Positions 3,805-63,769 of a stretch of 64,000 nucleotides of DNA are shown here, piece by piece. Numbering within the stretch: position 1 is the first letter of the stretch; each line of letters opens with the position of its first letter. This DNA is from Eubacteriales bacterium. Its GTDB lineage: Bacteria; Bacillota; Clostridia; Oscillospirales; CAG-382. The notes under the pieces are model-generated. The model was not told the origin of the DNA. It saw nothing but the letters and a program-made list of their open reading frames with translations, and did no database searches. The stretch covers positions 1,433 through 65,432 of the forward strand of contig JAZQKV010000116.1 in NCBI GenBank assembly GCA_045542335.1. Reading direction: 5' to 3'. A program made the translations under genes and the position numbers.

Positions 3805-3850
3805 AAATTTTTATAACAAATACTAACCAACCTAAAGGGGGGTATCATAT

Positions 3851-44888: not shown

Positions 44889-44928
44889 TGAGCTGTAAAC
44901 ATAGATAATAACGAAAGGAAATAAAATC

Positions 44929-46655: not shown

Positions 46656-46685
46656 AAGAAAAATAAGCAAAAGGAGGAAAGAATC

Positions 46686-46895
46686 ATGGCGAAAGCTATA
46701 TTTAATGAAGATATGTGTAAAGGCTGCGGACTTTGCGTTGCGGCTTGTCCAAAGAAAATTGTTGTACTTAAGGATAAGTTCAATGCCAAGGGTTACAGAC
46801 CTGCAGGCGTTAAGGACGAAGACCTTGATAAGTGCATCGGATGCGCATTTTGCGCAACAATGTGTCCCGATTGCGTAATTACGGTTGAAAAGTAA
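46686..46895 (+). CDS. 4Fe-4S dicluster ferredoxin subunit (delta) of 2-oxoacid:ferredoxin oxidoreductase
   Basis: Two CxxCxxCxxxCP motifs (CKGCGLCVAACP, CIGCAFCATMCP). Lies directly upstream of the alpha/beta/gamma subunits. Confidence 0.85.
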   Translation: MAKAIFNEDMCKGCGLCVAACPKKIVVLKDKFNAKGYRPAGVKDEDLDKCIGCAFCATMCPDCVITVEK

Positions 46896-46949
46896 AAAAT
46901 GAGCAAAGCGTGTTTCGGGACAAATGCCCCGGACGGAAAGGAATATAAC

Positions 46950-48014
46950 ATGAGTGAAAAAGTGTTGATGAAAGGTAACGAAGCAATGGCTGAAGCCGCT
47001 ATCATGGCAGGCTGTCATCATTATTTCGGATACCCTATCACTCCTCAGACAGAGGTTGCGGCGTATATGTCAAAAAGACTGCCCAAAATTGACGGCGGTG
47101 TGTTTCTTCAGGCAGAAAGTGAAATTGCGGCAATAAACATGGTTATTGGAGTTGCCTCCACAGGAAAGAGGGTTATGACCTCTTCGTCAAGCCCCGGAAT
47201 TGCCCTCAAGAGCGAGGGACTTTCCTATCTTGCAGGCTGCGATTTGCCCGCACTTGTTGTTAACGTTCAGAGAGGCGGCCCCGGTCTTGGCGGAATTCAG
47301 CCCTCACAGTCGGATTATTTCCAGGCAACAAAGGGCGGCGGACATGGCGACTATCATATGATTGTCCTTGCTCCCGCTTCCATTCAGGAAATGGTAAACC
47401 TCACATTCAAGGGCTTTGACCTTGCCGATAAATACAGAATGACATCAATGATTCTTGCCGACGGAACAATGGGTCAGATGATGGAGCCTGTTTCTCTCGA
47501 TATGGGAGAAATCACAAAGTATAATAAGGATTGGGCAACAACAGGTACAAAGTGCGAAAGAAAGCCCAACATAGTAAACTCCCTCTTTATAAAACCCGAA
47601 GAGCTTGAACAGTTCAATATTGAAAGATATAAGAAGTACGATGAAATCTGCGAAAAAGAGGTTATGTACGACGAATATCTCACAGACGATTGTGATGTTT
47701 GCGTGGTTGCTTTCGGCGTTGCCGCAAGAGTTGCGCAGAACGCCATTGACGAGGTCAGAAAAATGGGTATCAAGGCAGGAATGATTCGCCCCATCACCCT
47801 TTGGCCGTTCCCCAAGAAAGTACTTAACGAAATGGCAGATAAGGTTAAATCCTTTGTTTCGGTTGAACTCAATATGGGTCAGATGATTGAGGATATTGAG
47901 CTTGCAATAAGATGCAAAAAGCCTGTACTTTTCTGCGGCAGAAGCGGTGGCATGATTCCCACAACAGAAAACATCATTGAAAAGCTTGTTGAAGCAAATA
48001 AAGTTCAAGGCTGA
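46950..48014 (+). CDS. vorB: 2-oxoacid:ferredoxin oxidoreductase alpha subunit (VorB-type)
   Basis: N-terminus KGNEAMAEAAIMAGC..FGYPITPQTE is typical of the OFOR alpha subunit. The start was chosen at ATG 46950, with an AAAGGAA RBS. Confidence 0.8.
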   Translation: MSEKVLMKGNEAMAEAAIMAGCHHYFGYPITPQTEVAAYMSKRLPKIDGGVFLQAESEIAAINMVIGVASTGKRVMTSSSSPGIALKSEGLSYLAGCDLPALVVNVQRGGPGLGGIQPSQSDYFQATKGGGHGDYHMIVLAPASIQEMVNLTFKGFDLADKYRMTSMILADGTMGQMMEPVSLDMGEITKYNKDWATTGTKCERKPNIVNSLFIKPEELEQFNIERYKKYDEICEKEVMYDEYLTDDCDVCVVAFGVAARVAQNAIDEVRKMGIKAGMIRPITLWPFPKKVLNEMADKVKSFVSVELNMGQMIEDIELAIRCKKPVLFCGRSGGMIPTTENIIEKLVEANKVQG

Positions 48015-48076
48015 TTTACGATTTATGATTTTCGGGGTGGCTTAAAGACAGCGCCCTGTGAAAGGAATGGAATATA

Positions 48077-48826
48077 ATGGCAGTAGTATTTGAAAAACCC
48101 AAGGCTCTTACCGATGCACCGCTTCATTATTGTCCCGGCTGTACACACGGCATTATTCACAGACTTGTTGCCGAGGTTATTGATGAGCTTGGTATTCAGG
48201 GCAGAACAATCGGTGTTGCACCGGTTGGCTGTTCGGTTTTTGCATATAATTATTTTAATGTTGATATGATTCAGGCGGCACACGGACGTGCTCCCGCAGT
48301 TGCAACCGGCGCAAAGCGTTCCGATGGCAACAACATTGTGTTTACATATCAGGGCGACGGTGACCTTGCAGCTATTGGTACAGCTGAAACGGTTCATGCG
48401 GCAGCCCGTGGCGAAAACATCACGGTTATCTTTGTAAATAACGCAATTTACGGCATGACCGGCGGTCAGATGGCTCCCACAACACTTCCCGGTCAGGTTA
48501 CACAGACTTCTCCTTACGGACGTGATACCTCAAAAGTAGGTTTCCCCGTAAAGGTTTGCGAAATGCTTTCGCAGATTGACGGCGCAACTTACCTTGAAAG
48601 AGTTGCCGTAAACAACGTAAAGAATATCAGAGCCGCAAAGGCAGCAATCAAAAAGGCGTTCCAGAATCAGGTTGACGGAAAGGGCTTTTCGCTTATTGAG
48701 GTTCTTTCAACCTGTCCGACAAACTGGGGCAAGACTCCCACGGATGCAATTGCGTGGCTTGAGGAAAATATGATTCCTTATTATCCTCTGGGCGTTTATA
48801 AGGACAAGTACGCCGAAGAAAAGTAA
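48077..48826 (+). CDS. 2-oxoacid:ferredoxin oxidoreductase beta subunit (TPP-binding)
   Basis: YCPGCTHG cluster-ligand motif and GDGD..A..G TPP motif. Confidence 0.85.
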   Translation: MAVVFEKPKALTDAPLHYCPGCTHGIIHRLVAEVIDELGIQGRTIGVAPVGCSVFAYNYFNVDMIQAAHGRAPAVATGAKRSDGNNIVFTYQGDGDLAAIGTAETVHAAARGENITVIFVNNAIYGMTGGQMAPTTLPGQVTQTSPYGRDTSKVGFPVKVCEMLSQIDGATYLERVAVNNVKNIRAAKAAIKKAFQNQVDGKGFSLIEVLSTCPTNWGKTPTDAIAWLEENMIPYYPLGVYKDKYAEEK

Positions 48827-48854
48827 TGCGGCACGGACGAAAGGAATGTGTATT

Positions 48855-49391
48855 ATGAACAAGAAAATTCTTATTGCAGGCTTTGGTGGGCAGGGTATTC
48901 TTTTCTCGGGAAAGTTCCTTGCTTACGCAGGGCTTATTGAGGGCAAAGAGGTAAGCTGGCTTCCCTCTTACGGCCCCGAAATGAGAGGCGGTACTGCAAA
49001 TTGCAGTATTATTATCAGCGACACAAAGGTCGGATCTCCCATTGTTGATAAACCCGATATACTTATCGCAATGAACGCTCCCTCGCTTGACAAGTATGTA
49101 AACGACGTTGTTTCCGGCGGTGAGATTTATGTTGACAGCGCACTTATTGAGAAAAAGGTTGAAAGAACAGACGTCAAAACATATTATATCCCTGCAACTG
49201 CAATTGCGGATGCCGAGGGACTCAAAGGCCTTGCAAACATGATTATTGCCGGCATGGTTTGCGAAAAGAGCAAGATTATTGAAAAGGAAACCATAGAAAA
49301 GGCAATGCAAAAGGTTGTTTCCGCAAAGAAAAAGGAACTGTTTGACCTTAACATGAAGGCAATGGAGATTGGCGCAAATTACGAGGGTTGA
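48855..49391 (+). CDS. 2-oxoacid:ferredoxin oxidoreductase gamma subunit
   Basis: IAGFGGQGILFSGK motif is typical of the gamma subunit. The start was chosen at ATG 48855. Confidence 0.85.
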   Translation: MNKKILIAGFGGQGILFSGKFLAYAGLIEGKEVSWLPSYGPEMRGGTANCSIIISDTKVGSPIVDKPDILIAMNAPSLDKYVNDVVSGGEIYVDSALIEKKVERTDVKTYYIPATAIADAEGLKGLANMIIAGMVCEKSKIIEKETIEKAMQKVVSAKKKELFDLNMKAMEIGANYEG

Positions 49392-49440
49392 AATTTTACT
49401 TGTGTCAGAATGCCGATAAGATTTGATGAAAGGACGGTTC

Positions 49441-49998
49441 ATGGAAATGAATGATCAGATTAAAGACATTGGTTTAAGACTTAAGCTTTTAAGAGAAGAT
49501 GCGGCGATTGAAGCGGAAGATATGGCGGAAAAGCTTGAGGTTTCCACAGAGGAATACCTCGCTTATGAAAAAGGCGAAAAGGATTTTTCGTTTGGACTTA
49601 TCTATAACGCCGCTGAAGTTCTCGGGGTTGACGTTGTTGATATTATCAGCGGCAATGCTCCCACACTTTCCATGTGTTCCATGGTTAAAAAGGGCAAGGG
49701 CTACAGCGTTAAACGTGAGCACGAATACGACTATAAGCACCTTGCTTTTACTTTCAGAAACAAGAAAGCTGAGCCTTTTCTTGTTACAATCACTCCCGAC
49801 AATGAGCCTCCCGTTATGAAAAGCCATGAGGGACAGGAATTCAACTATGTTGTTTCGGGGAAAATGATGCTTTATATAGGAGACATCTCCTATGAGCTCT
49901 CCAAGGGCGATAGCGTTTACTTTGATTCGAGTGTACCTCATGCTGAGGTAGCTATGGGCGATAAGGAAGCGCAGTTTATCGCCGTAGTTATTAAGTAA
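49441..49998 (+). CDS. XRE-family HTH + cupin-domain transcriptional regulator
   Basis: N-terminal HTH_3 region (IGLRLKLLRED..MAEKLEVSTEEYLAYEKGE) and a C-terminal cupin (HEGQEFNYVVSGKMML...GDSVYFDSSVPH). Confidence 0.8.
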   Translation: MEMNDQIKDIGLRLKLLREDAAIEAEDMAEKLEVSTEEYLAYEKGEKDFSFGLIYNAAEVLGVDVVDIISGNAPTLSMCSMVKKGKGYSVKREHEYDYKHLAFTFRNKKAEPFLVTITPDNEPPVMKSHEGQEFNYVVSGKMMLYIGDISYELSKGDSVYFDSSVPHAEVAMGDKEAQFIAVVIK

Positions 49999-50046
49999 AC
50001 GACGGTCGGCATTGTATGCCGTCACGCAGATTCGGAGGTTATTCAG

Positions 50047-51762
50047 GTGGCAATCTATGAAAATTTCGTTGGCGCCTCAAGAGATGATTTTCTATCTCTT
50101 AAGGATGCCCAGAACAATTACAAGCTGTCTTACGAAGAAAACTTTAACTTTGCATACGATGTTCTTGATGTTCTTGGAACAACCAAGCCCAATAAGCTTG
50201 CAATGGTGTATGTTTCAAACGACGGAGAAGAAAAAAGATTCACTTTTGAGGATATGATGATTGCGTCAAACAAGGCGGCGAACTTCTTTACGTCCCTTGG
50301 TATCAAAAAAGGTGACACAGTTCTTCTGACACTCAAGAGAAGCTATTATTTCTGGTTCTGTATGCTTGGACTTCACAAGATTGGTGCAATTGCTATTCAG
50401 GCAACGCATATGCTCAAGGCAAAGGACTATATTTACAGATGTGAAGTTGCCAAAATAAAGTGTGTTATTATTACCGGTGACGGCGAGGCAACCGAGTATT
50501 TTGACGAGGGTGCAGATAAGTGCAAGACCGTCAAGGTAAAGCTTACAACCGGTGGTAAGGAAAAGAAAATCGGAAACGGATGGCTCAGTTTTGAGGAAGG
50601 CTTTGAAGGCTCAAGCAGCCGTTGGACACGTCCCACGGGCAAAAAGGCAACCAAGGCAGACGACACCATGCTTGTTGCTTTTTCTTCCGGCACAACAGGT
50701 TATCCCAAAATGATTACCCACAACTTCAAGTATCCTCTCGGACACATTATGACAGGCGTGTTCTGGCACAGAGTTGTTGACGGCGGTCTTCATTTTACGA
50801 TTTCCGACACAGGCTGGCTCAAATCCCTTTGGGGCAAGTTCTATGGTCAGTGGTTTGGCGAATGTGCTGTGCTTGTTTACGATTTTGATAAGTTTGTTGC
50901 TAAGGATATTCTCAGTGTTATTGAAAAATATAAGGTTACAACCTTCTGTGTGCCTCCGACAATGTACAGAATGCTGCTTGAAGAGGATGTTTCAAAGTAT
51001 GACCTTTCTTCAATGGTTCATTGTTGTTCTGCAGGTGAAGCACTTAACCCCGAAATTTTCAACAAGTGGAAGCAGGCTACCGGACTTAAAATTTATGAGG
51101 GCTTTGGTCAGACCGAAACAACCGTTTGCATTGCAACGCTTTATCCCTGGAGTGAACCTGTTCCCGGAACGTTGGGCTACCCTGTTCCCGGATATGATGT
51201 CAATATTCTCGATTCCGAAAATAAACCTTGTCAGAGAGGTACTACAGGCGAAATCAGCATAAGAGTGCTTTCTCAGAAAAGAAAGGCTTGCGGTCTTCTC
51301 GATACATATAATTATAGCAAGGAAGACACGCAGAACGCAGTTTATGGCGGCTATTTCCACACCGGTGATACGGCATACCGTGATGAAACAGGAGTGTTCC
51401 GTTACGTTGGCAGAAATGATGACGTTATCAAATCGTCCGGCTATCGTATCGGACCATTTGAAATCGAGAGTGTGCTTCTTGAGCACGATGCTGTAAAGGA
51501 AGTTGCCGTTACAGGTGTTCCTGACCCGATAAGAGGCTTTGCGGTAAAGGCGGCGATTGTGCTTGCGGAAGGTTATGAAGGCTCGGATGAACTTACAAAA
51601 GAGCTTCAGAAGTACGTTAAGGATAACACCGCACCCTACAAATATCCGAGAGTTGTCGAATATGTCAAGGAGCTTCCCAAAACCTTCAACGGCAAGATAA
51701 GAAGAAGCGAAATAAGAGAAAATGATGCCAAAAAAGCAGCAGAGGAAAAGGTAGGCAAGTGA
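50047..51762 (+). CDS. AMP-forming medium-chain acyl-CoA synthetase (MACS/ACSM family)
   Basis: N-terminal NFNFAYDVLD... pattern of the ACSM/MACS family. AMP-binding motifs: FSSGTTGYPKM, YEGFGQTET, FHTGDTA, GRNDDVIKSSGYRIGP. GTG start. Confidence 0.8.
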   Translation: MAIYENFVGASRDDFLSLKDAQNNYKLSYEENFNFAYDVLDVLGTTKPNKLAMVYVSNDGEEKRFTFEDMMIASNKAANFFTSLGIKKGDTVLLTLKRSYYFWFCMLGLHKIGAIAIQATHMLKAKDYIYRCEVAKIKCVIITGDGEATEYFDEGADKCKTVKVKLTTGGKEKKIGNGWLSFEEGFEGSSSRWTRPTGKKATKADDTMLVAFSSGTTGYPKMITHNFKYPLGHIMTGVFWHRVVDGGLHFTISDTGWLKSLWGKFYGQWFGECAVLVYDFDKFVAKDILSVIEKYKVTTFCVPPTMYRMLLEEDVSKYDLSSMVHCCSAGEALNPEIFNKWKQATGLKIYEGFGQTETTVCIATLYPWSEPVPGTLGYPVPGYDVNILDSENKPCQRGTTGEISIRVLSQKRKACGLLDTYNYSKEDTQNAVYGGYFHTGDTAYRDETGVFRYVGRNDDVIKSSGYRIGPFEIESVLLEHDAVKEVAVTGVPDPIRGFAVKAAIVLAEGYEGSDELTKELQKYVKDNTAPYKYPRVVEYVKELPKTFNGKIRRSEIRENDAKKAAEEKVGK

Positions 51763-52514
51763 CTATGAAAGGGACGGAAGACAGAGGTTCCGACGCCCAA
51801 AGATTGAGCAATGAGCTTTTTGATTATTTGTTTCTTGCAGTTGCCGAAGTGTATATAAATGGCGCAAGTGATTATTGCGTAGTCAAGGTTATATTCAGCC
51901 GCGATAAGAGGTTTTATGAGGGTCACACACTCACCCCTGAACAGGCAAAGCAGATTTTGCTTTCACCGTCGTCTGTTTCAGCAACATTTGATGCAGATTG
52001 CCTTCGGGACGTAACAATCAAGGATCTTGCTGAAATGACGGGTAAGAGACGTTTCTGTTATAGCATTGAACCTAAAAACGGCATTTTGAAGCGCAGGATT
52101 CTTACGCTTTATGTTGTTCAGCCGGGAAAGAGGATTATTGCAACCGTCAGCGAAGCAGAGCATTCAGATGGCGGTGACCTGATTTTCAGGTTAAACAAGA
52201 GCGAATATGTTATCCGGCGTTCTGACATTATATATGTTGATTATGGTAATCACAGTGTTGTGGTACACGATCTCTCGGGTAAGCGCAGCTTTTTCAGCGT
52301 GTCCTTTAGCGATGTTGCAGACGAGCTTCTTTCAGACAGAAATTTCGTTCGCAGTTATAAAAACTGTATTGTAAATATGGACAGAGTGCGAAAACTTGAG
52401 AATGATGCGTTTATAATGGAAAACGGCGATGTTATTTCTATTCCCAAGAGACGGCTTCGCGAGATTAAGGCTTATTATGAGGCTTATCTTGTGCTCCGTG
52501 GGAATCCACAGTAA
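51759..52514 (+). CDS. LytTR DNA-binding domain protein with an uncharacterised N-terminal domain (no receiver motifs seen)
   Basis: C-terminal LytTR pattern (IRRSDIIYVDYGNHSVVVH...FVRSYKNCIVNMDRV). The start overlaps the upstream stop. Confidence 0.65.
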   Translation: MTMKGTEDRGSDAQRLSNELFDYLFLAVAEVYINGASDYCVVKVIFSRDKRFYEGHTLTPEQAKQILLSPSSVSATFDADCLRDVTIKDLAEMTGKRRFCYSIEPKNGILKRRILTLYVVQPGKRIIATVSEAEHSDGGDLIFRLNKSEYVIRRSDIIYVDYGNHSVVVHDLSGKRSFFSVSFSDVADELLSDRNFVRSYKNCIVNMDRVRKLENDAFIMENGDVISIPKRRLREIKAYYEAYLVLRGNPQ

Positions 52515-55294: not shown

Positions 55295-55633
55295 GTTTTC
55301 GCCCCTTTTAAGGTTTTTCATGTGTTTTCATTATCTCCTATTTTACACCATTTTTTACATCTTTTGGTTTACCGCTTGAATATATTTTGCAAATTTTTAT
55401 GGTTTAAATATGCAGTCAAGCATATTTTCGGCAAAAATCTATGTTAAAATGTGACAAAAGGGACAGTTAATATAAATTTTATAAGAATTTTCAAAAAATA
55501 TCTTTGAAATACTGCTTGAAATCATGAAAAAAAGGTAATATAATGATGTAAGTGAAATTGTTGTCTGCGAAAGGACACAAAGTCTGAAAATAGATTTTCG
55601 GATTTACACCGCAAGAAAGGAATGGTAATAAAA

Positions 55634-56806
55634 ATGACAAAGATAGATATATTTTCGGGTTTTCTTGGCGCAGGAAAAACCACGCTTATAAAAAAACTCA
55701 TCACCGAAGCCTATAAGGGCGAAAAGCTTGTTCTTATTGAAAACGAATTTGGCGAAATAGGAGTTGACGGCGGCTTTCTTAAGGAAGCAGGTATTCAGAT
55801 TAACGAAATGAACTCCGGCTGTATTTGCTGCAGTCTTGTGGGTGATTTTTCGGAAGCTCTCGGAAAGGTAATTGCGGACTATGCTCCCGACAGGATTCTT
55901 ATAGAGCCGTCGGGCGTGGGCAAGCTCAGCGATGTTATAAAGGCGGTTGAGGGGCTTGGCGACAAGGTTTGCGTAAACTGTGTCACAACCGTTGCAGATG
56001 CTTCAAAGTGCAAAATGTACATGAAGAATTTCGGCGAATTTTTCAACAATCAGATTGAAAATGCAAAGACGGTAATTCTCAGCAGAACCACAGGAATGGA
56101 CGAAGCAAAGCTTGAAAAATGCGTTGAGCTTATTCGTGAAAAGAATAGCGATGCCGTTATAATCACAACTCCCTGGGAGGACCTTGACGGAACAAAGATT
56201 CTCGAAGCCATGGAAACTTCTCCGTCACTTGACGACATTCTCCGCCAGCTTGAGCACGACGCTCACGAGCATCATCACGACCACGATCATCATCATGACC
56301 ACGAGCATCACCACCACGACCATGATGATCACGACGAGCACGATGAACATTGCACCTGCGGTTGCCATGATCACGACCATGAACATGACCACGAGCATCA
56401 CGACCACGATCACGAGCATTATCATGATCACGAACATCATCATGAGCATGATCACCACGACCACCACCATGAACACGGTGAACATTGTTGTTGCGGACAC
56501 GATCATGATCATCACCACCATCATCACCATGCTGACGAAGTGTTTGAAAGCTGTGGCGCAGAAACCGCAAAGATATTCACCGAGCAGGCTATAACAGAAG
56601 CGTTGACAAAGCTTTCAAATGTCGGAGAATACGGTTTTGTACTGCGTGCAAAGGGCATCGTAAACGGTGGCGACGGTTGGATACATTTTGACTACACCCC
56701 CGGCGAAATTAACGTGCGCAAGGGTGCGGCAGATGTCACAGGACGCATTTGCATAATCGGCTCGGGCATTGACAAGCATGAGGTTATGGAGCTGTTCGGA
56801 CTTTGA
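55634..56806 (+). CDS. COG0523 (CobW/YjiA/ZigA-type) G3E GTPase metallochaperone with a very long His/Asp/Cys-rich insert
   Basis: GFLGAGKTTL P-loop, ENEFGE, and the GCICCS metal motif. The His-rich tract is encoded at about 56253-56530 and includes CTCGCH and CCCGH. A promoter TTGAAA-17-TATAAT lies at about 55517-55545. Confidence 0.85.
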   Translation: MTKIDIFSGFLGAGKTTLIKKLITEAYKGEKLVLIENEFGEIGVDGGFLKEAGIQINEMNSGCICCSLVGDFSEALGKVIADYAPDRILIEPSGVGKLSDVIKAVEGLGDKVCVNCVTTVADASKCKMYMKNFGEFFNNQIENAKTVILSRTTGMDEAKLEKCVELIREKNSDAVIITTPWEDLDGTKILEAMETSPSLDDILRQLEHDAHEHHHDHDHHHDHEHHHHDHDDHDEHDEHCTCGCHDHDHEHDHEHHDHDHEHYHDHEHHHEHDHHDHHHEHGEHCCCGHDHDHHHHHHHADEVFESCGAETAKIFTEQAITEALTKLSNVGEYGFVLRAKGIVNGGDGWIHFDYTPGEINVRKGAADVTGRICIIGSGIDKHEVMELFGL

Positions 56807-56858
56807 GATTAAGGCAAAAAGGTCTGCAAGCTAAAATGACGAAAGGAACAATTGCAAA

Positions 56859-57806
56859 ATGAAAGAAATTCCCGTATATCTTTTCACAGGCTTCCTTGAA
56901 AGCGGCAAAACGAAGTTTATTCAGGAAACATTGTGCGACAAGCGTTTTAACAACGGCGAGAGAACCCTGCTTATTGTTTGCGAGGAGGGCGAAGAGGAAT
57001 ATGCGCCTGATATGTTTTCGGGCAAAAACGTTTTTGTTGCAAACATTGAGAGCGAGGACGAGCTGACGGAGCAAAAGCTTGCCGCCCTTGCGAAACAGCA
57101 TAAAATTGAAAGAGCTGTTGTCGAATACAACGGAATGTGGACTCTTGACAAGCTTTATGGTGCGCTTCCCGAAAACTGGAGCGTATATCAGGAAATGATG
57201 TTTGCAAATTCCGAGACATTTCTGTTTTACAACACAAACATGAGAAGTCTTGTTGTAGACAAGCTTCAGAGCTGCGAGCTTGTTATACTTAACCGTGCAA
57301 GTGACTCAACCGATAAGGATGAGATTCATAAGGTTATCCGCGGCGTTACACGTCGTTCGGACATCGCCTATGAATACGCTGACGGTCATGTCGAGTATGA
57401 CGAAATTGAAGATCCGCTTCCTTTTGATGTTGAAGCGGAGGTCGTTGAGGTTGCTGACCGTGATTATGCTCTTTGGTATAGGGATCTCTCCGAGGATATG
57501 GCAAAATATTCGGGAAAGGTTATGAAGTTCAAGGGACAGGTTGTTGCGAGTGACCCGGAAGACAAGCATTTGTTTGTTTTCGGCAGAAAGATAATGGTTT
57601 GTTGCGAAAACGACATTGCCATGCGTGGACTTCTTTGCCGTGACACAACCGGTTCTTATAAGGCAAAGCGTGGCGAATGGCTTGTTGTGACAGCTTCGGT
57701 TTCAATTGAAAATCATAAGATTTACGGTAGCGAGGGTCCCGTTCTCAACATGGTTGATTTTGAAAAGGCGGATGCACCCGAAAATGAGGTTGCAACGTTT
57801 TATTGA
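56859..57806 (+). CDS. degenerate G3E-GTPase-like protein fused to a DUF1980-C-like Cys-containing domain
   Basis: GFLESGKT P-loop, but CEEGEEE replaces ENEFGE, there is no CxCC motif, and NRAS replaces NKxD. The C-terminal KFKGQVV...FVFGRKIMVCCENDIAMRGLLC resembles the DUF1980/TIGR03943 C-terminal pattern (from memory). Confidence 0.55.
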   Translation: MKEIPVYLFTGFLESGKTKFIQETLCDKRFNNGERTLLIVCEEGEEEYAPDMFSGKNVFVANIESEDELTEQKLAALAKQHKIERAVVEYNGMWTLDKLYGALPENWSVYQEMMFANSETFLFYNTNMRSLVVDKLQSCELVILNRASDSTDKDEIHKVIRGVTRRSDIAYEYADGHVEYDEIEDPLPFDVEAEVVEVADRDYALWYRDLSEDMAKYSGKVMKFKGQVVASDPEDKHLFVFGRKIMVCCENDIAMRGLLCRDTTGSYKAKRGEWLVVTASVSIENHKIYGSEGPVLNMVDFEKADAPENEVATFY

Positions 57807-57818
57807 TCAGATAATATA

Positions 57819-57847
57819 AAAGTGCGGATTTTGTCCGCACTTTTTTC
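57819..57847 (+). terminator. rho-independent terminator
   Basis: AAGTGCGGA / TCCGCACTT stem followed by TTTTTT. Confidence 0.75.
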
Positions 57848-58009
57848 TCATATATTCAGCTTAATAACCACACTTGTTTTCACATTATGGCATATATAAA
57901 AATATCGTTGTGATTCCGAAGGATAAAAAATTTTTACAATATAAAAACACAATCAGCTTTAATAAACTGTCGCACAGGTGTATAATTATTCAAAAGAATG
58001 TTGTTGATA

Positions 58010-58044: not shown

Positions 58045-58119
58045 GAGATATTCAAAGGGTAACCCGAAAACACGGACTTTTAAAAGCTATACCCCGACGT
58101 TCCAAAGGAGGAATATACA

Positions 58120-61100
58120 ATGCCACTCAATAAGAATCTGCATAAGGTTATGGTTATCGGCTCCGGACCCATTATTATCGGTCAGGCGGCTGAATTTGAC
58201 TATGCAGGCACACAGGCTTGCCGTGCCCTTAAAAAGGCAGGACTTGAAGTTGTTCTTGTAAACTCAAATCCGGCTACAATTATGACGGATAACCATATGG
58301 CGGATAAAATCTATATCGAATCCCTTGACCTTGAAACTGTTAAGCGTATCATCGAAAAAGAAAAGCCGGACAGCCTCCTGTCAACCCTTGGCGGTCAGAC
58401 GGGACTCACGCTATCCATGCAGCTTGCAAAGGAGGGATTTCTCGCTTCTCACGGAGTGACACTCCTCGGTGCAAATCCCGAAACCATTGATAAGGCAGAG
58501 GACAGACAAATGTTCAAGGACACAATGGAGAAAATCGGTCAGCCGTGTGTGCCCTCAACAATCGTTGATAATGTCCCGGATGCTCTGCGTTTTGCTGAGG
58601 AAATAGGTTACCCCGTTATCATTCGCCCGGCATTTACCCTTGGCGGAACAGGCGGCGGCATTGTAAATAACGTTGCACAAATGAAAGAAATCTGCGGCAA
58701 CGGACTCAGACTTTCGCCCATTACACAGGTTCTTGTTGAAAAGTGCATCTCCGGCTGGAAAGAAATTGAATATGAGGTTATGAGAGATAGCGCAGGGCAT
58801 TGCGTTGCGGTCTGCTCAATGGAAAACTTTGACCCTGTCGGCGTTCACACAGGCGACAGCATTGTTGCCGCACCTGCGGTTTCCCTTAGCGAAAAAGAAC
58901 TTGGTATGCTCCGTAAGGCGGCACTTGATATTGTCAATGAGCTTGGCGTTGAGGGCGGATGCAACTGTCAGTTCGCACTTCATCCAACAACAGGCGAATA
59001 TGCCGTTATTGAGGTGAATCCCAGAGTTTCCCGTTCGTCTGCCCTCGCTTCAAAGGCAACAGGATACCCCATTGCCAAGGTTGCAACAAATATCGCAATC
59101 GGCTTTACCCTTGAAGAAATCTGCAACGAAAACACAGGTAAAAACTGCGCTCATTTTGAGCCTGCGCCCGATTATATAGTTTGCAAATTTCCCAAATGGC
59201 CCTTTGATAAGTTCGTTTACGCCGACAGAAAACTCGGCACACAGATGAAAGCCACAGGCGAGGTTATGTCAATCGGCGCAACCTTTGAAGAGGCCCTCAT
59301 GAAAGCCGTAAGAGGTGCGGAGCTTTCCCTTGAAACACCCACACTCCCTGCCCTTGCAGAGCTTTCAGATGTTGACATCATGAACGGAGTCGCCGCTTGT
59401 ACAGACGAAAGACTTTTCTATCTGTACGAAGCAATGAAGCGTGGCGTGACCGACGACAAGCTTTACGAAATAACCCGAATTGACCCATGGTTCCTTGAAA
59501 GAGTGAGAAAGCTTTGTGATTTTGAAATGTCCCTTAAGGGTGCTCAGATTACAGAAGAAATCTATGATAAGGCGAAAAAGCTCGGATTCCTTGACAAAAC
59601 AATTGAAACCTTAAGCGGCAAGCCTCTCAAGTATAAGAAGTATGCATCTTACAGAATTGTTGATACCTGTTCCGATAATATCTACGCCGATTCTCCCTAT
59701 TTTTATTCAACCTTTGCCGAGGATTCCGAAAGCAACGGCAACGAGGCAAGAACTCATAAGCAAAACAACGTTACAGGCAAAAAAACCGTAATAGTGTTTG
59801 GCTCAGGTCCAATAAGAATCGGTCAGGGAATAGAGTTTGACTATGCCTGCGTGCATTGTGTAAATTCCCTTAAAAAGCTTGGGTTTGAGGTTGTCATTGT
59901 CAACAACAACCCCGAAACCGTTTCCACCGACTATGACACCGCCGACAGACTCTATTTTGAACCGCTTCATATTGAGGATGTCATGAGTATCATCAACACC
60001 GAAAAGCCTTACGGCGTTGTTGTTGCATTCGGAGGTCAAACGGCAATCAAGCTTACAAATAAGCTTTCAGCCGCAGGAATAAAAATTCTCGGAACATCAG
60101 CCGACAGCATTGATGCCGCCGAGGACAGAAAGCGTTTTGATGCGCTTCTTGAGGAGCTTGAAATAAAGCGTCCCCGTGGTTTCACGGTGTTCACAGAGGA
60201 TGAGGCAATTGAGGTTGCAAAAGGTATCGGCTATCCTGTCCTTATCCGACCCTCATATGTGCTTGGCGGTCAGAACATGATTATCGCCTACACCGAGGAC
60301 GACATTCACGAATACATGAAGATTGTCCTCACCCATACAGAGAAAAATCCCATTCTCATCGACAAGTATCTCTCCGGAACAGAGCTTGAGGTTGATGCAA
60401 TCTGCGACGGCAAGGATATTCTTATTCCCGGAATTATGGAGCACATTGAACGTGCAGGAATCCATTCAGGTGACTCAATTGCGGTTTATCCTGCGTTTAA
60501 TGTGAGCGATAAGATGCGTGAAAGGATTATCGACTGTTCCCGTCGCCTTGCTCTTTCGCTGGGAACTATGGGACTTATCAATATACAATATCTGATTTAT
60601 GAAGATGAGCTTTATGTTATTGAGGTAAACCCCCGTTCTTCAAGAACAATTCCCTATATAAGCAAGGTCACAGGCGTTCCCATGATTGATCTTGCAGTGC
60701 GTTCAATGGTGGGAACTTCCGACAACCCCGAAAAACCCGAGGCACTTGCGAATATGGGCTTTGGAACAGGTCTTTACAGAAATTCACCTTATTTTGCAGT
60801 CAAAGTTCCGGTGTTCTCGTTTGCAAAGCTCATTGATGTTGACAATCAGCTTGGTCCGGAAATGAAGTCAACCGGTGAGGTGCTCGGTATCGCAAATACC
60901 CTTGAGGAAGCGCTTTACAAGGGAATTTCTGCCGCAGGCTATAATCTTAAAAAGAGTGGCGGTGTTTTGTTTACCGTCCGTGATATTGACAAGGATGAAA
61001 TGGCGGATGTTGCCGCAAAGTTCCATAAGCTCGGTTTCAAGCTTTATGCCACAAAGGGAACGGCGGAACGCTTTATTTCGGCAGAGCTTCCCATCACGGT

Positions 61101-62214
61101 TTGCACAAAGGGGCAAGCCGGAGTTGACATGGATGAGCTTATTGACGGCGGCATGATTGACTATGTTGTCTCAACGTCAAGACGTGGAAGAACCCCCACA
61201 AAGGACAGCGTGCGACTGCGCAGAAAAGCAATTGAACGCAGTATTCCGTGCCTTACCTCGGTTGACACGGCAAGCGCACTTGCAGACAGCCTTCTTTCAA
61301 GATATTCAGCGGCATCGGTTGAGCTTGTAAACATTAACGATATGCGCCATGAAAAGCTTAAGTACACCTTCACCAAGATGACGGACTGCGGAAATGACTA
61401 TATATACTTCAATTGCTTTGAGGAAAAGATATATAATCCCGAAGGTCTTGCAGTCAGCCTTTCCGACCGTCATAACGGCATTGGCGCAGACGGAGTTATT
61501 CTTATCGAGCCTGATTTTTCAAAACAGGCAGATGCCCGTATGCGAATGTTCAACCGTGACGGAAGCGAGGGCAAAATGGCGGGAAATGCCATAAGATGTG
61601 TTGCAAAATATCTCTTTGACAACGGCATTGTGAAAAAGACAGAAATGAAAATTCTCACTGCAAGCGGTGTAAAGGAGCTTAGCCTTACAGTTAATGAAGG
61701 CAAGGTCAGCACGGTTTGCGTAAAGGTTGCAAAGGCAGAGCTTTCCCCTGAAAGTATTCCTGTGAACATCAAGGCTGAAAGAGTTATTGGAAAATCTGTT
61801 CAGATAGGCGGAAAGGAATATGAGATAAGCTGTGTCTCTGTTGGAAATCCGCATTGCGTAATCTTCTGTGAGGGCGAAAATAAGGTTTCAGAGGCGGATG
61901 TCGCAGGAGAGGGAAGCGTTATTGAGCATTGTGGTCTTTTCCCCGAAAGAACAAATGTTGAATTCTGCAAGGTTATCAATCCCGATTCAATTATTATGAG
62001 AGTGTGGGAAAGAGGCAGTGGCGAAACGCTTGCCTGCGGTACAGGTGCGTGTGCGGCGGTTGTTGCGGCGGTCGAAAGAGGACTTTGTGAACATGGTAGA
62101 GAGGTCACTGTCAAACTCCTTGGCGGAAATCTCAAGGTAAGATATGACGAGGATGGCTTTGTTTATCTCACAGGCGATCCACGAAAGGTTTTTGACGGAA
62201 TAATTGAGATTTAA
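58120..62214 (+). CDS. carB: carbamoyl-phosphate synthase large subunit fused in frame to a C-terminal diaminopimelate-epimerase-like domain
   Basis: Two ATP-grasp halves (IGSGPIIIGQAAEFDYAG and FGSGPIRIGQGIEFDYA) plus an MGS-like domain make up aa 1 to about 1080. Aa 1081-1364 (nt 61360-62211) carry DapF motifs: FTKMTDCGNDY, SVGNPHCV, ERGSGETLACGTGA. Confidence 0.85.
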   Translation: MPLNKNLHKVMVIGSGPIIIGQAAEFDYAGTQACRALKKAGLEVVLVNSNPATIMTDNHMADKIYIESLDLETVKRIIEKEKPDSLLSTLGGQTGLTLSMQLAKEGFLASHGVTLLGANPETIDKAEDRQMFKDTMEKIGQPCVPSTIVDNVPDALRFAEEIGYPVIIRPAFTLGGTGGGIVNNVAQMKEICGNGLRLSPITQVLVEKCISGWKEIEYEVMRDSAGHCVAVCSMENFDPVGVHTGDSIVAAPAVSLSEKELGMLRKAALDIVNELGVEGGCNCQFALHPTTGEYAVIEVNPRVSRSSALASKATGYPIAKVATNIAIGFTLEEICNENTGKNCAHFEPAPDYIVCKFPKWPFDKFVYADRKLGTQMKATGEVMSIGATFEEALMKAVRGAELSLETPTLPALAELSDVDIMNGVAACTDERLFYLYEAMKRGVTDDKLYEITRIDPWFLERVRKLCDFEMSLKGAQITEEIYDKAKKLGFLDKTIETLSGKPLKYKKYASYRIVDTCSDNIYADSPYFYSTFAEDSESNGNEARTHKQNNVTGKKTVIVFGSGPIRIGQGIEFDYACVHCVNSLKKLGFEVVIVNNNPETVSTDYDTADRLYFEPLHIEDVMSIINTEKPYGVVVAFGGQTAIKLTNKLSAAGIKILGTSADSIDAAEDRKRFDALLEELEIKRPRGFTVFTEDEAIEVAKGIGYPVLIRPSYVLGGQNMIIAYTEDDIHEYMKIVLTHTEKNPILIDKYLSGTELEVDAICDGKDILIPGIMEHIERAGIHSGDSIAVYPAFNVSDKMRERIIDCSRRLALSLGTMGLINIQYLIYEDELYVIEVNPRSSRTIPYISKVTGVPMIDLAVRSMVGTSDNPEKPEALANMGFGTGLYRNSPYFAVKVPVFSFAKLIDVDNQLGPEMKSTGEVLGIANTLEEALYKGISAAGYNLKKSGGVLFTVRDIDKDEMADVAAKFHKLGFKLYATKGTAERFISAELPITVCTKGQAGVDMDELIDGGMIDYVVSTSRRGRTPTKDSVRLRRKAIERSIPCLTSVDTASALADSLLSRYSAASVELVNINDMRHEKLKYTFTKMTDCGNDYIYFNCFEEKIYNPEGLAVSLSDRHNGIGADGVILIEPDFSKQADARMRMFNRDGSEGKMAGNAIRCVAKYLFDNGIVKKTEMKILTASGVKELSLTVNEGKVSTVCVKVAKAELSPESIPVNIKAERVIGKSVQIGGKEYEISCVSVGNPHCVIFCEGENKVSEADVAGEGSVIEHCGLFPERTNVEFCKVINPDSIIMRVWERGSGETLACGTGACAAVVAAVERGLCEHGREVTVKLLGGNLKVRYDEDGFVYLTGDPRKVFDGIIEI

Positions 62215-62244
62215 ACAGATAAAACGGTTTAATATAAAAAAAGA

Positions 62245-62277
62245 GGAGCTTGATTTGTTCAAGCTCCATTCTTTTTT
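62245..62277. terminator. bidirectional rho-independent terminator
   Basis: GGAGCTTGA / TCAAGCTCC stem flanked by an A-run and a T-run. It sits between convergent genes. Confidence 0.7.
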
Positions 62278-62317
62278 ATATAATGCATAAATAAAAAACG
62301 GTATTGTGTTAAGCCGG

Positions 62318-63769
62318 TTACACTCGCCCATAAAGCTCCGCCAGCTTGCGGTATTTTTTCGTGTCAATGCCGTCAAGCTGCTCTTTTGTAATGCGGTATT
62401 GCCAGTTTCCATCGGCTTTCCCGGGAATATTCAGCCTTGTGTCAGAACCATATCCAAGTATGTCCTGAATGGGGAGAATAAGAAGTCCTGCACCGCTTGC
62501 ATACATTGTGCGGATAATGCGGTCATAGGCTTCTGTGCTGTCCCATTCGGAAGAAAAATGACCGCAATAGTTCATCACTTTTTCACGGGTTACCTCATCA
62601 AGCTCCCACACATACCCAAGAAGAGTGTTGTTATCGTGAGTGCCTGTGTATGCGACGCTGTTGTTGGGGTAATTATAAGGACGGTGAGGCGAATCTCCGC
62701 CGTCAAGAAAACCGAATTGAAGCACTCTCATGCCGGGAAATCCGCTGTATTCAACAAGGTCATAAACCTCTTTTGTTATGTCCCCAAGATCCTCGGCAAC
62801 CACAAGCTTTTCTCCCGCACATTCTTTAATTACATCAATGAATTCTTTTCCGGGCCCCTTTATCCAGCTTCCCTCTTTTGCACTTTTTGCATCAGCCGGT
62901 ACGCTCCAATACGACTCAAATCCACGGAAATGGTCAATTCTCACACCGTCAAAAAGTCTGAACATATGCATGAGCCTTGCACGCCACCAGCCAAAACCGT
63001 CGGACTTCATGCTTTCCCAGTCATAGAGAGGATTACCCCAAAGCTGACCATCCTCGGAGAAATAGTCCGGAGGAACTCCTGCAACACATCTCGGATGACC
63101 GTCGCCGTCAAGCAAAAAACGGTTTTCGCCGCAGGCACTCCACATATCACAGCTGTCCGGTGCAACGTAAATGGGAATGTCGCCCATAATCTTTATGCCC
63201 TTTTGATTTGCATAGGATTTTATTTTGTCCCATTGGGTGAAAAACTCATATTGGATAAATTTCCACATAAATTCAACCTGAGATGAGAAATCTTCGGTTG
63301 TCCATTTTTCATGGGGAGCACCATGGTTTGCCGTTTTCAAAGCCATGTAACGGCAGAAGTCGGCAATATACTTGTCGCCGTCAATAAAGTCTTCCACTTT
63401 TCTTCTATAAGCCTCATCTACACGGCAGGAAGCCTTCATCAGAACTGAAAAACGTGTGTGATAAAGACGGACAAATTCACAGCTGTAGGGAGTGTGCTGA
63501 CGGCAGCTTTCAAGCTCGTCTGCTGTTATAAATCCTTTTTCGCAAAGTGTCGGCAGGTCAACAAAATATGGATTTCCTGCAAAAGCAGAGTCGGATTTAT
63601 AAGGTGAGTTACATTCGTCAACAGGGCAGAACGGAAGCGTCTGCCACCAGGAAAAACCGCTTTCGGCGAGAAAATCAATAAATTGCTTTGCTTCTTTTCC
63701 AAAGCTTCCGCAGGAAAAGTCGCCGTGGAGAGTGCTTATGTGCATGAGCACGCCGCATTGTCTTTTCAT
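62318..63769 (-). CDS. malQ: 4-alpha-glucanotransferase (amylomaltase, GH77)
   Basis: Motifs typical of GH77 MalQ: GVLMHISTLHG N-terminus, WGNPLYDW, VRIDHFRGF, AEDLG, TGTHDN. Confidence 0.9.
   Translation of the reverse strand: MKRQCGVLMHISTLHGDFSCGSFGKEAKQFIDFLAESGFSWWQTLPFCPVDECNSPYKSDSAFAGNPYFVDLPTLCEKGFITADELESCRQHTPYSCEFVRLYHTRFSVLMKASCRVDEAYRRKVEDFIDGDKYIADFCRYMALKTANHGAPHEKWTTEDFSSQVEFMWKFIQYEFFTQWDKIKSYANQKGIKIMGDIPIYVAPDSCDMWSACGENRFLLDGDGHPRCVAGVPPDYFSEDGQLWGNPLYDWESMKSDGFGWWRARLMHMFRLFDGVRIDHFRGFESYWSVPADAKSAKEGSWIKGPGKEFIDVIKECAGEKLVVAEDLGDITKEVYDLVEYSGFPGMRVLQFGFLDGGDSPHRPYNYPNNSVAYTGTHDNNTLLGYVWELDEVTREKVMNYCGHFSSEWDSTEAYDRIIRTMYASGAGLLILPIQDILGYGSDTRLNIPGKADGNWQYRITKEQLDGIDTKKYRKLAELYGRV

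What the first reader, a model, noticed from the sequence alone, without database searches (positions are those of the whole stretch)
58120..62214. CarB fused to a DapF-like domain that lacks one of the two catalytic cysteines, with no carA nearby
The 1364-aa ORF is a complete carbamoyl-phosphate synthase large subunit (aa 1 to about 1080). It continues in frame into a roughly 284-aa diaminopimelate-epimerase-like domain (nt 61360-62211) with motifs FTKMTDCGNDY, VGNPHCV and ERGSGETLACGTGA. In the position of the first catalytic Cys of DapF (canonical ..SE..MCGNG.RC..) the sequence reads SEGKMAGNAIRC, with Ala encoded by GCG at 61579-61581. The second Cys (LACGTGA) is retained. A two-base epimerase missing one thiol is expected to be inactive or repurposed. 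No glutaminase subunit (carA) is adjacent. The fusion may be regulatory or scaffolding, a new activity, or an artefact.
Basis: partly seen in the sequence, partly recalled or inferred. Interest (0 to 1): 0.7.

Follow-up and report, generated by a model that had tools for sequence, protein, structure and literature searches.

The report
CarB fused to one-thiol DapF domain
This gene joins the large subunit of carbamoyl-phosphate synthase to a diaminopimelate-epimerase domain that lacks one of its two catalytic cysteines; the fusion is real, common in gut Clostridia, unrecognised in annotation, and the cysteine has been lost many separate times while the rest of the pocket stays conserved.

Summary
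**Observation:** confirmed. ORF 58120-62214 (+) encodes 1364 aa: a full-length CarB (aa 1-1060), a short conserved linker, and a full-length DapF domain (aa 1083-1364). Ala1154 (GCG, 61579-61581) replaces the first catalytic Cys. The second Cys (1306) is kept. The 64-kb window holds no carA and no second dapF.

**Artefact:** ruled out. The same in-frame fusion occurs in 77 of 80 representative-genome hits, including cultured isolates, and in all 120 best full-length database hits.

**Annotation:** sources call it only "carbamoyl-phosphate synthase large subunit", or "diaminopimelate epimerase, partial". No paper describing it was found.

**Pattern:** among 186 full-length fusions the first position is C105/A30/G28/S23 and the second is C185/A1. 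Parsimony needs at least 22 changes against 1. About 50 stand-alone DapFs all keep both Cys. Every other substrate-binding residue stays conserved. dN/dS between two Ala-bearing relatives is 0.08.

**Interpretation (inferred):** the domain can no longer run the canonical two-thiol epimerisation but is kept for a role that depends on its pocket. That role is most likely ligand binding or a structural function on the CarB allosteric end. CarA must be encoded elsewhere.

**Untested:** the ligand, any residual activity, and whether the genome has another DAP epimerase.

The parts
57818..57850 (+). Hairpin plus T-run (AAAAGTGCGGATTTTGTCCGCACTTTTTT). It ends the upstream CobW/DUF1980 unit and separates it from carB::dapF.
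   Evidence: consensus scan and direct reading; function inferred
57959..57986 (+). Promoter-like site: TTAATA, 16 nt, TATAAT.
   Evidence: 10 of 12 consensus match; not proof of function
58104..58111 (+). Shine-Dalgarno sequence AAAGGAGG, 8 nt before the ATG.
   Evidence: direct reading
58120..61299 (+). CarB part (aa 1-1060): two preATP-grasp/ATP-grasp modules (ATP-grasp 1 at 58501-59118, ATP-grasp 2 at 60139-60735), oligomerisation domain (59392-59613), and MGS-like allosteric domain (60997-61257).
   Evidence: NF003671 1407.5 bits, TIGR01369 1360 bits; dN/dS 0.06 against L084
61300..61365 (+). Short conserved linker (..SRYSAASVELVNINDMRHEKLKY). The family consensus is NTELVDINxMR.
   Evidence: E, L, I, N and R of the linker are invariant or at least 90% conserved among fused homologues
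61366..62211 (+). DapF-like domain (aa 1083-1364), complete two-lobe DapF fold.
   Evidence: dN/dS 0.08 against L084
61579..61581 (+). GCG = Ala1154, at the position of the first catalytic Cys (Cys73 in H. influenzae numbering).
62035..62037 (+). Codon of the retained second catalytic Cys (Cys1306, equivalent to Cys217).
62212..62214 (+). Stop codon TAA.
62245..62267 (.). Bidirectional terminator-like hairpin (GGAGCTTGATTTGTTCAAGCTCC) with T-runs on both strands. It lies between carB::dapF and the convergent malQ.

Best explanation
The gene is a genuine member of a widespread but unrecognised clostridial family in which CarB carries a DapF domain on its C-terminal allosteric (MGS-like) end through a short conserved linker.

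The ancestral and commonest form has both catalytic cysteines and is presumably bifunctional. In the window's lineage, as in many others, the first thiol (the Cys73 equivalent, the base that acts on L,L-DAP) has been replaced by a small residue. I infer that the domain can no longer run the canonical two-thiol epimerisation at a useful rate.

The domain is nevertheless kept under purifying selection with its whole substrate pocket and the second Cys intact. The most likely reading is that it now works as a pocket-dependent, non-epimerising module of the synthase. It would bind DAP or a DAP-like amino acid, close its two lobes as DapF does, and so stabilise, dimerise or regulate the adjoining allosteric domain of CarB.

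The CarB part is an intact large subunit. It is transcribed here as a single-gene unit and must pair with a CarA encoded elsewhere, or use ammonia.

Shown: the anatomy, the recurrence, the one-sidedness, the selection, and the conserved pocket.
Inferred: loss of epimerase activity, ligand binding, coupling to CarB, and CarA being elsewhere.
For: 1. The fusion is real and common. 77 of 80 species-representative genome loci have one in-frame ORF of about 1340-1380 aa, including Ruminococcus sp. FC2018, Yeguia hominis and Neglectibacter caecimuris. All 120 best full-length hits are 1345-1365 aa with both domain sets. A RefSeq isolate protein exists, WP_457789897.1.

2. Catalytic pair in 186 full-length fusions: position 73 is C105/A30/G28/S23; position 217 is C185/A1. 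Fitch parsimony on a CarB-only tree needs at least 22 changes at position 73 against 1 at position 217; shuffled tips give a mean of 61.

3. About 45 true stand-alone DapFs among the hits, plus 7 in loci, are all Cys/Cys. The one apparent exception, P0079, starts inside the fusion linker.

4. All other DapF pocket residues (N11, N64, G74, N75, N157, H159, N190, E208, R209, G218, T219) are kept in the Cys-less copies, except N11D in part of the arg-operon Ala clade. The disrupted L061 gene shows what real decay looks like: most of these residues are gone.

5. dN/dS between the window and L084, both with Ala, is 0.082 in the DapF domain and 0.062 in CarB. At equal CarB divergence, Cys-less domains are only 0-5 identity points more diverged.

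6. Only small residues (A, G, S) replace the Cys, although Y, F, R and W are equally reachable by one mutation. F does occur in four sequences outside that full-length set (P0041 and three metagenome loci).

7. A 'half-CarB' class keeps the domain with Ser at both positions, so the domain persists without any thiol.

8. Literature. Single Cys-to-Ser changes in PddB and M. tuberculosis DapF leave <0.1% activity (PMC8225329). The E. coli C73A/C217A double mutant is inactive, and DapF already moonlights as a protein partner of RppH (PMC6061791). E. coli lacking dapF grows, and a non-homologous epimerase, DapF2, exists (10.1101/2024.10.14.618325).

9. The linker is short and conserved, and the dimer-interface aromatic residue (E. 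coli Y268, here F in KVFDG) is retained.
Against: No ligand, activity or interaction was measured.

I could not test whether the window's genome, or any Cys-less genome, has another DAP epimerase, which this reading expects.

Near-universal retention of the second Cys is not obviously required for simple binding. It fits a chemical role better.

The AlphaFold model gives pTM of only 0.67, so the packing of the DapF domain against the allosteric domain is not established.

A 98%-identical metagenome contig (L085) carries a nonsense codon and a 1-bp deletion in this gene. The gene may therefore be dispensable in that strain, or the contig may be erroneous.

NJ trees and regex or alignment calls on MAG data carry error, so the count of 22 changes is a rough minimum on one tree.
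Confidence: 0.45

Rival explanations
1. The domain is still the cell's working DAP epimerase. A water molecule or another residue occupies the space left by Cys-to-Ala/Gly/Ser and acts as the second acid/base. Low flux is enough for a slow-growing anaerobe.
For: The domain scores well above the DapF equivalog cutoff (257 against 114.65 bits). Every substrate-binding residue and the second Cys are conserved. Replacements are always small, leaving room for water. Purifying selection is strong. No second dapF is in the window. E. coli tolerates loss of dapF, so the demand for activity can be low (10.1101/2024.10.14.618325).
Against: Single Cys-to-Ser mutants of DapF homologues retain <0.1% activity, and Ala cannot act as an acid/base at all (PMC8225329). 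If a one-thiol enzyme sufficed, stand-alone DapFs should sometimes show it, yet 0 of about 50 do, against 81 of 186 fused copies. The Ser/Ser half-CarB class keeps the domain with no thiol.
Confidence: 0.2
2. The one-thiol domain is a new enzyme. It would use the retained Cys as a single base for a reaction other than epimerisation, such as elimination/dehydration or isomerisation of a DAP-like or arginine-pathway compound. The precedent is the Cys-Thr members of the proline racemase superfamily, which are trans-3-hydroxy-L-proline dehydratases.
For: The one-sidedness is strong: at least 22 changes at the first Cys against 1 at the second. This is what a one-base catalyst predicts. Pocket-lining positions co-vary with the Cys loss (window positions 1300, 1304, 1241, 1181, 1157), and the window carries the derived residue at three of them. 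A large Ala clade is embedded in arginine operons and part of it also has N11D. For the precedent, see PMC3958920. The 3-hydroxyproline dehydratases share the fold.
Against: No candidate substrate emerges from the context: the window gene stands alone among unrelated genes. The replacing residue varies freely among A, G and S, rather than being fixed as Thr is in the dehydratases. The window's pocket differs from a canonical clostridial DapF only at the Cys among the 17 key positions checked. The Ser/Ser class exists. The co-variation signal may be inflated by shared ancestry.
Confidence: 0.15
3. The window copy is a decaying or redundant relic. It would be a second carB::dapF copy moved away from carA, with an already dead epimerase domain, on its way to becoming a pseudogene.
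For: There is no carA in 64 kb, whereas nearly all relatives have carA directly upstream, including the closest full-length relative P0121. The 98%-identical contig L085 has Q823* and a 1-bp deletion at 62009. One relative, L061, is a clear whole-gene pseudogene.
Against: The ORF is intact over 4092 nt, with its own promoter-like site, a strong Shine-Dalgarno sequence and a terminator. dN/dS is 0.06-0.08 against L084, which keeps the same downstream synteny. Window against L085 shows 35 synonymous and 4 non-synonymous codon differences. L085 is a single low-coverage metagenome contig.
Confidence: 0.1
4. The fusion itself is a sequencing or assembly artefact, for example a lost stop codon between adjacent carB and dapF genes.
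For: None found, beyond the general possibility.
Against: The junction is a conserved in-frame linker present in 186 full-length homologues from independent isolates, MAGs and metagenomes.
Confidence: 0.01

Closest known systems
Diaminopimelate epimerase DapF (TIGR00652 / PF01678; structures 2otn, 1gqz, 4ijz)
   Same: Full-length two-lobe fold (target-normalised TM 0.91 to 2otn). 40-50% identity to solved DapFs. All substrate-binding residues, the second catalytic Cys and the dimer-interface aromatic residue are present.
   Different: The first catalytic Cys is Ala. The domain is not free-standing but is the C-terminal extension of CarB. Pocket-adjacent positions 1304, 1241 and 1181 carry residues typical of Cys-less fused copies.
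Carbamoyl-phosphate synthase large subunit CarB (NF003671 / TIGR01369)
   Same: Complete domain set and length for aa 1-1060, scoring far above the equivalog cutoffs, and under purifying selection.
   Different: It carries an extra 300-aa linker and domain after the allosteric domain. Unlike nearly all fused relatives, no carA is adjacent.
Cys-Thr members of the proline racemase superfamily (trans-3-hydroxy-L-proline dehydratase; same fold class)
   Same: A two-Cys, cofactor-independent racemase scaffold in which one catalytic Cys is replaced and the protein remains functional with a different reaction (PMC3958920). These proteins are structural neighbours of the model.
   Different: There the replacement is a fixed Thr and the substrate is known. 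Here the replacement drifts among A, G and S, and no alternative substrate is indicated.
E. coli DapF as a non-catalytic partner of RppH
   Same: A precedent that the DapF fold can serve as a protein-binding regulator of another enzyme (PMC6061791, PMC4227774).
   Different: In E. coli, DapF is a separate, catalytically intact protein and its partner is an RNA pyrophosphohydrolase. Here the partner is covalently attached CarB, and the epimerase machinery is incomplete.
DapF homologues with other substrates (DcsC O-ureidoserine racemase 7vdy; PddB 2,4-diaminobutyrate racemase)
   Same: Same family and fold. They show that the pocket can be retuned to other amino acids, including a ureido compound (PMC8225329).
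   Different: Both keep the thiolate-thiol pair and are stand-alone enzymes.

Membership tests
CarB (carbamoyl-phosphate synthase large subunit) | Full-length match to the curated equivalog models, above their cutoffs | tested here: met
   NF003671 1407.5 bits (cutoff 599), aa 1-1060. TIGR01369 1360.4 bits (cutoff 1027).
CarB (carbamoyl-phosphate synthase large subunit) | Duplicated preATP-grasp/ATP-grasp modules, oligomerisation domain and MGS-like allosteric domain, in order | tested here: met
   Pfam CPSase_L_D1 x2, CPSase_L_D2 x2, CPSase_L_D3 and MGS.
CarB (carbamoyl-phosphate synthase large subunit) | Partner glutaminase subunit CarA, usually encoded next to it | tested here: not met
   No carA in the 64-kb window. 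Most fused relatives have carA directly upstream. The rest of the genome could not be searched.
CarB (carbamoyl-phosphate synthase large subunit) | Carbamoyl-phosphate synthesis activity | not testable with these tools
   Needs an enzyme assay or genetics.
DapF (diaminopimelate epimerase) | Full-length match to TIGR00652 / PF01678, above cutoff | tested here: met
   257.3 bits against a cutoff of 114.65, aa 1083-1362. PF01678 gives two stretches.
DapF (diaminopimelate epimerase) | Two-lobe DapF fold | tested here: met
   AlphaFold model pLDDT 88.8. Foldseek against 2otn_A gives target-normalised TM 0.91, rmsd 1.7 A.
DapF (diaminopimelate epimerase) | First catalytic Cys (Cys73, H. influenzae numbering) | tested here: not met
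   Ala1154, GCG at 61579-61581. Aligned opposite Cys in 2otn, 9mro and 5ha4.
DapF (diaminopimelate epimerase) | Second catalytic Cys (Cys217) | tested here: met
   Cys1306 in ERGSGETLACGTGA.
DapF (diaminopimelate epimerase) | Substrate-binding residues N11, N64, N75, N157, N190, E208, R209 (assignment of roles is from my own knowledge of the H. influenzae structures) | tested here: met
   All are present in the window domain.
DapF (diaminopimelate epimerase) | L,L- to meso-DAP epimerase activity | not testable with these tools
   Expected to be lost or reduced at least 1000-fold, by analogy with single-Cys mutants (PMC8225329). Not measured.
One-base enzymes of the racemase fold (such as Cys-Thr 3-hydroxyproline dehydratases) | One catalytic Cys replaced by a fixed, conserved alternative residue | tested here: not met
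   The replacement varies: A30, G28, S23 among 186 fusions.
One-base enzymes of the racemase fold (such as Cys-Thr 3-hydroxyproline dehydratases) | The other catalytic Cys strictly retained | tested here: met
   C in 185 of 186 full-length fusions. The exceptions are the separate Ser/Ser half-CarB class.
One-base enzymes of the racemase fold (such as Cys-Thr 3-hydroxyproline dehydratases) | Genomic context pointing to an alternative substrate | tested here: inconclusive
   The window gene stands alone among unrelated genes. A separate Ala clade lies in arg operons, but that context is already explained by CarB itself.

The most novel reading that the evidence does not exclude
The DapF domain on CarB has evolved repeatedly from an enzyme into a one-thiol, or thiol-free, ligand-sensing clamp. 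It would report the level of a cell-wall/lysine precursor (DAP), or in the arg-operon clade an arginine-pathway amino acid, to the allosteric domain of carbamoyl-phosphate synthase. That would be a previously unknown built-in regulatory input for this enzyme. Alternatively, the one-thiol form is a new enzyme activity.
Probability: 0.3. Interest if true: 0.8.

Novelty: new variant of a known kind. Interest (0 to 1): 0.6.

Why it matters
Carbamoyl-phosphate synthase is a textbook allosteric enzyme. A conserved extra domain on its allosteric end, in a large group of gut and rumen Clostridia, would be a new layer of its biology.

The family also offers a natural experiment. An enzyme domain has lost the same catalytic residue at least about 20 times while staying under selection, and that pattern is directly testable by expression, binding and complementation.

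There are practical consequences too:
- Automatic annotation calls these proteins plain CarB, which misses a probable sole DapF in the Cys/Cys genomes.
- It calls Cys-less fragments "diaminopimelate epimerase", which probably overcalls them.
- Both errors distort lysine and peptidoglycan pathway reconstruction for these organisms.

Tried and rejected
1. **Relocated catalytic Cys.** The Cys in TDCGNDY (Leu9 position) looked like a candidate, but it is common in canonical Cys/Cys stand-alone clostridial DapFs and varies among C, A, T, S and I. Cys-enriched columns in Cys-less copies (window positions 1106, 1111, 1115, and position 1157 in some) are specific to the arg-operon clade and absent from the window.

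2. **Leader RNA or riboswitch upstream.** The Rfam gathering scan of the whole window found only one tRNA.

3. **Finding the source genome or close relatives.** The exact protein is not on record. The best identity is 58% in the representative-genome scan and 60% in the metagenome scan. Only two short ENA contigs, L084 and L085, are close. The organism is therefore unnamed: a spore-forming Clostridia member related to Oscillospiraceae/Ruminococcaceae MAGs.

4. **Testing whether Cys-less genomes have another dapF.** This is not possible with flanks of 10 kb or less. No second DapF lies within 10 kb of any Cys-less locus. Four Cys/Cys or disrupted loci do have one (L020, L052, L061, L168).

5. 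**L061 as a control for domain-only decay.** It turned out that the whole gene is disrupted there (four CarB HSPs, a broken ORF), so it only shows what whole-gene decay looks like.

6. **carA remnants upstream.** None were found. Homology to the carA-linked relative L086 starts exactly at the carB ATG.

8. **First parsimony run.** It timed out and was redone with a vectorised distance matrix.

Full report
**1.

ORF 58120-62214 on the + strand encodes 1364 aa. NCBIfam matches the CarB equivalogs over aa 1-1060 (NF003671, 1407.5 bits against a cutoff of 599). It matches the DapF equivalog TIGR00652 over aa 1083-1362 (257.3 bits against 114.65). Pfam finds every CarB domain plus DAP_epimerase.

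Alignment to solved DapFs places SEGKMAGNAIRC opposite SEGKSCGNGLRC of B. anthracis DapF. Ala1154 (GCG, 61579-61581) therefore occupies the first catalytic Cys position, and Cys1306 (62035-62037) is the retained second one. An AlphaFold model of aa 930-1364 (pLDDT 88.8) superposes on 2otn_A at target-normalised TM 0.91 and rmsd 1.7 A.

The window contains no carA (best tblastn E = 1.7) and no second dapF.

**2. The fusion is not an artefact, and it is common**

A search with the DapF part returned many hits carrying the CarB MGS domain plus DAP_epimerase. These are truncated calls of the same fusion, starting at internal Met residues.

A scan of one genome per species found the in-frame fusion in 77 of 80 loci, with ORFs of about 1314-1512 aa. 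These include cultured Ruminococcus sp. FC2018, Ruminococcaceae AM07-15, Neglectibacter caecimuris and Yeguia hominis, and a closed Christensenellaceae MAG chromosome.

A full-length search gave 120 of 120 best hits at 1345-1365 aa with both domain sets. The linker (consensus NTELVDINxMR) is short and conserved.

Sources name these proteins only "carbamoyl-phosphate synthase large subunit" or "carB", for example RefSeq WP_457789897.1 from Anaeromassilibacillus sp. SJQ-5. Fragments are named "diaminopimelate epimerase, partial". Four literature searches found no description of the fusion.

**3. The Cys loss is recurrent, one-sided and confined to fused copies**

State of the catalytic pair in 186 full-length fusions:

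| Position (H. influenzae numbering) | C | A | G | S |
|---|---|---|---|---|
| 73 (first Cys) | 105 | 30 | 28 | 23 |
| 217 (second Cys) | 185 | 1 | 0 | 0 |

On a tree built from the CarB half alone, parsimony needs at least 22 Cys/non-Cys changes at position 73 and 1 at position 217. Shuffled tips need about 61.

Trees from the CarB half and from the DapF half agree on two features:
- A monophyletic Ala clade always lies in arginine operons (argB/argF/argG/argH-carA-carB::dapF, for example L003). Part of it also has N11D.
- A Cys/Cys clade has A, G or S variants scattered within it.

The window sits in the second clade with the Ala variants P0121, P0123 and P0126.

About 45 true stand-alone DapFs in the hit list, and 7 in fetched loci, are all Cys/Cys. 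The single apparent exception, P0079, begins inside the fusion linker.

**4. The Cys-less domain is maintained, not decaying**

All other pocket residues (N11, N64, G74, N75, N157, H159, N190, E208, R209, G218, T219) are retained in Cys-less copies, apart from the N11D change in part of the arg-operon clade. In the disrupted L061 gene most of them are gone.

Between the window and L084 (85% aa identity, both with Ala, same downstream synteny), dN/dS is 0.082 in the DapF domain and 0.062 in CarB. At matched CarB divergence, Cys-less domain pairs are only 0-5 identity points lower than Cys/Cys pairs.

In the 186 full-length fusions the replacements are only small residues. Phe appears in four sequences outside that set.

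Several pocket-adjacent positions shift together with the Cys loss (1300 S to N/T, 1304 W to L/M, 1241 M to V/I, 1181 L to A, 1157). The window has the derived residue at 1304, 1241 and 1181. Shared ancestry may inflate this signal.

A separate class of 845-870-aa proteins consists of the C-terminal half of CarB (window residues 511-1070) plus a DapF-like domain with Ser at both catalytic positions. It occurs on six contigs.

**5. Local context**

The gene looks monocistronic:
- A hairpin with a T-run ends the upstream unit (57818-57850).
- A promoter-like site lies at 57959-57986.
- AAAGGAGG lies 8 nt before the ATG.
- A bidirectional terminator lies at 62245-62267.

The neighbours are a His-rich CobW-type GTPase, a DUF1980 protein and a convergent 4-alpha-glucanotransferase. 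The rest of the window has no arg, pyr or DAP genes, and Rfam finds only a tRNA.

In relatives carA is almost always directly upstream. This includes the nearest full-length relative, P0121 (77% identity, Ala variant, three contigs). Homology with it begins exactly at the carB ATG. The solitary arrangement is therefore derived.

**6. Interpretation**

Published single Cys-to-Ser mutants of DapF homologues keep <0.1% activity (PMC8225329), and the E. coli C73A/C217A double mutant is inactive (PMC6061791). A Cys-to-Ala domain is therefore very unlikely to be a normal epimerase. This is inference; nothing was measured.

Cys loss is seen only where the domain is fused. This suggests that losing the Cys abolishes the reason for a stand-alone gene to exist, while the fused domain has a second reason to persist. 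Because the pocket is conserved, that second role should involve the pocket.

My best reading (confidence 0.45) is a ligand-binding, lobe-closing, probably dimerising module acting on the adjacent allosteric domain. Precedents are DapF acting as a protein partner of RppH (PMC6061791), and the dispensability or replaceability of DapF (10.1101/2024.10.14.618325).

Strict retention of the second Cys is the main fact this reading explains poorly. It keeps two rivals alive: residual epimerase activity (0.2), and a new one-base activity analogous to the Cys-Thr dehydratases of the proline racemase superfamily (0.15; PMC3958920).

A relic reading (0.1) rests on the missing carA and on L085. That contig is 98% identical and carries Q823* and a 1-bp deletion at 62009. 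The selection data argue against it.

**7. What could not be done**

I could not search whole genomes, so it is unknown whether Cys-less genomes have another DAP epimerase, or where the window's carA lies. No close relative of the window's species exists in the two large collections scanned.

**8. Verdict**

This is a real, common but unrecognised architecture. Its one-thiol form is a recurrent, selectively maintained variant of unknown function.

Novelty: new variant of a known kind. Interest: 0.6.

Noticed in passing
L093 8408-10939; also L110, L127, L146, L147, L149: A 'half-CarB' class: ORFs of 845-870 aa made of the C-terminal half of CarB (second ATP-grasp module plus allosteric domain, window residues 511-1070) fused to a DapF-like domain in which both catalytic Cys are Ser (MSGNAIRC, ETQASGTSAC). 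No carA or CarB N-terminal half lies upstream.
   Followed up: partly
L003, L015, L019, L026, L044, L047, L048, L053, L056, L057, L071-L073, L078, L082: A monophyletic clade of Ala-variant fusions sits at the end of arginine operons (argG/argH/argB/argF-carA-carB::dapF). Part of the clade also has N11D and extra conserved Cys in a TCPESLCxxxC stretch.
   Followed up: partly
L020 12772-13593; L052 10997-11821; L061 6864-7682; L168 9360-10193: Four loci carry a canonical stand-alone Cys/Cys dapF 0.1-2 kb downstream of the fused gene. In L061 (an Acutalibacter MAG) the fused gene is disrupted and its DapF pocket residues are lost.
   Followed up: partly
L085 (aligns to window 59828-62747): A 98%-identical metagenome contig has a nonsense codon (Q823*, window nt 60586) and a 1-bp deletion at window nt 62009 inside this gene. 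This is either a strain-level pseudogene or an assembly error.
   Followed up: partly
window 55622-57806 (+): A CobW/G3E-type GTPase with a very long His/Asp-rich stretch (about aa 215-305), followed by a protein with a DUF1980 C-terminal domain. This is likely a metal-chaperone pair, and it ends at the terminator hairpin 57818-57850.
   Followed up: no
window 41014-52514 (+): A same-strand cluster: a LeuA-like protein (HMGL-like plus LeuA_dimer), an 818-aa fusion of a xylose-isomerase-like TIM barrel with an AMP-binding enzyme, a class IV aminotransferase, 2-oxoacid:ferredoxin oxidoreductase subunits, a second AMP-binding enzyme and a LytTR regulator. It may be an uncharacterised amino- or keto-acid pathway.
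   Followed up: no
window 29883-34400 (+): A 1505-aa ORF whose only Pfam match is S-layer homology repeats near aa 938-978. The rest has no family match.
   Followed up: no
window 8679-9836 (-): An M20/M25/M40 peptidase with a dimerisation domain. This is the family that includes ArgE, DapE and N-acetyl-DAP deacetylases, and it is the only gene in the window that could belong to the arginine or DAP pathways. Its specificity was not examined.
   Followed up: no
window 2171-6376 (+), 27000-28379 (-), 35637-38069 (+): McsA-like, McsB (ATP:guanido phosphotransferase) and ClpC, plus SpoIVB and SpoIIE. The source is therefore a spore-forming member of the Bacillota/Clostridia.
   Followed up: no
L016 (WQUW01000014.1): A contig carrying a Gly-variant fusion is labelled 'MAG: Treponema sp.' although the gene groups with clostridial fusions. 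This is probably a binning error in a termite-gut MAG.
   Followed up: no
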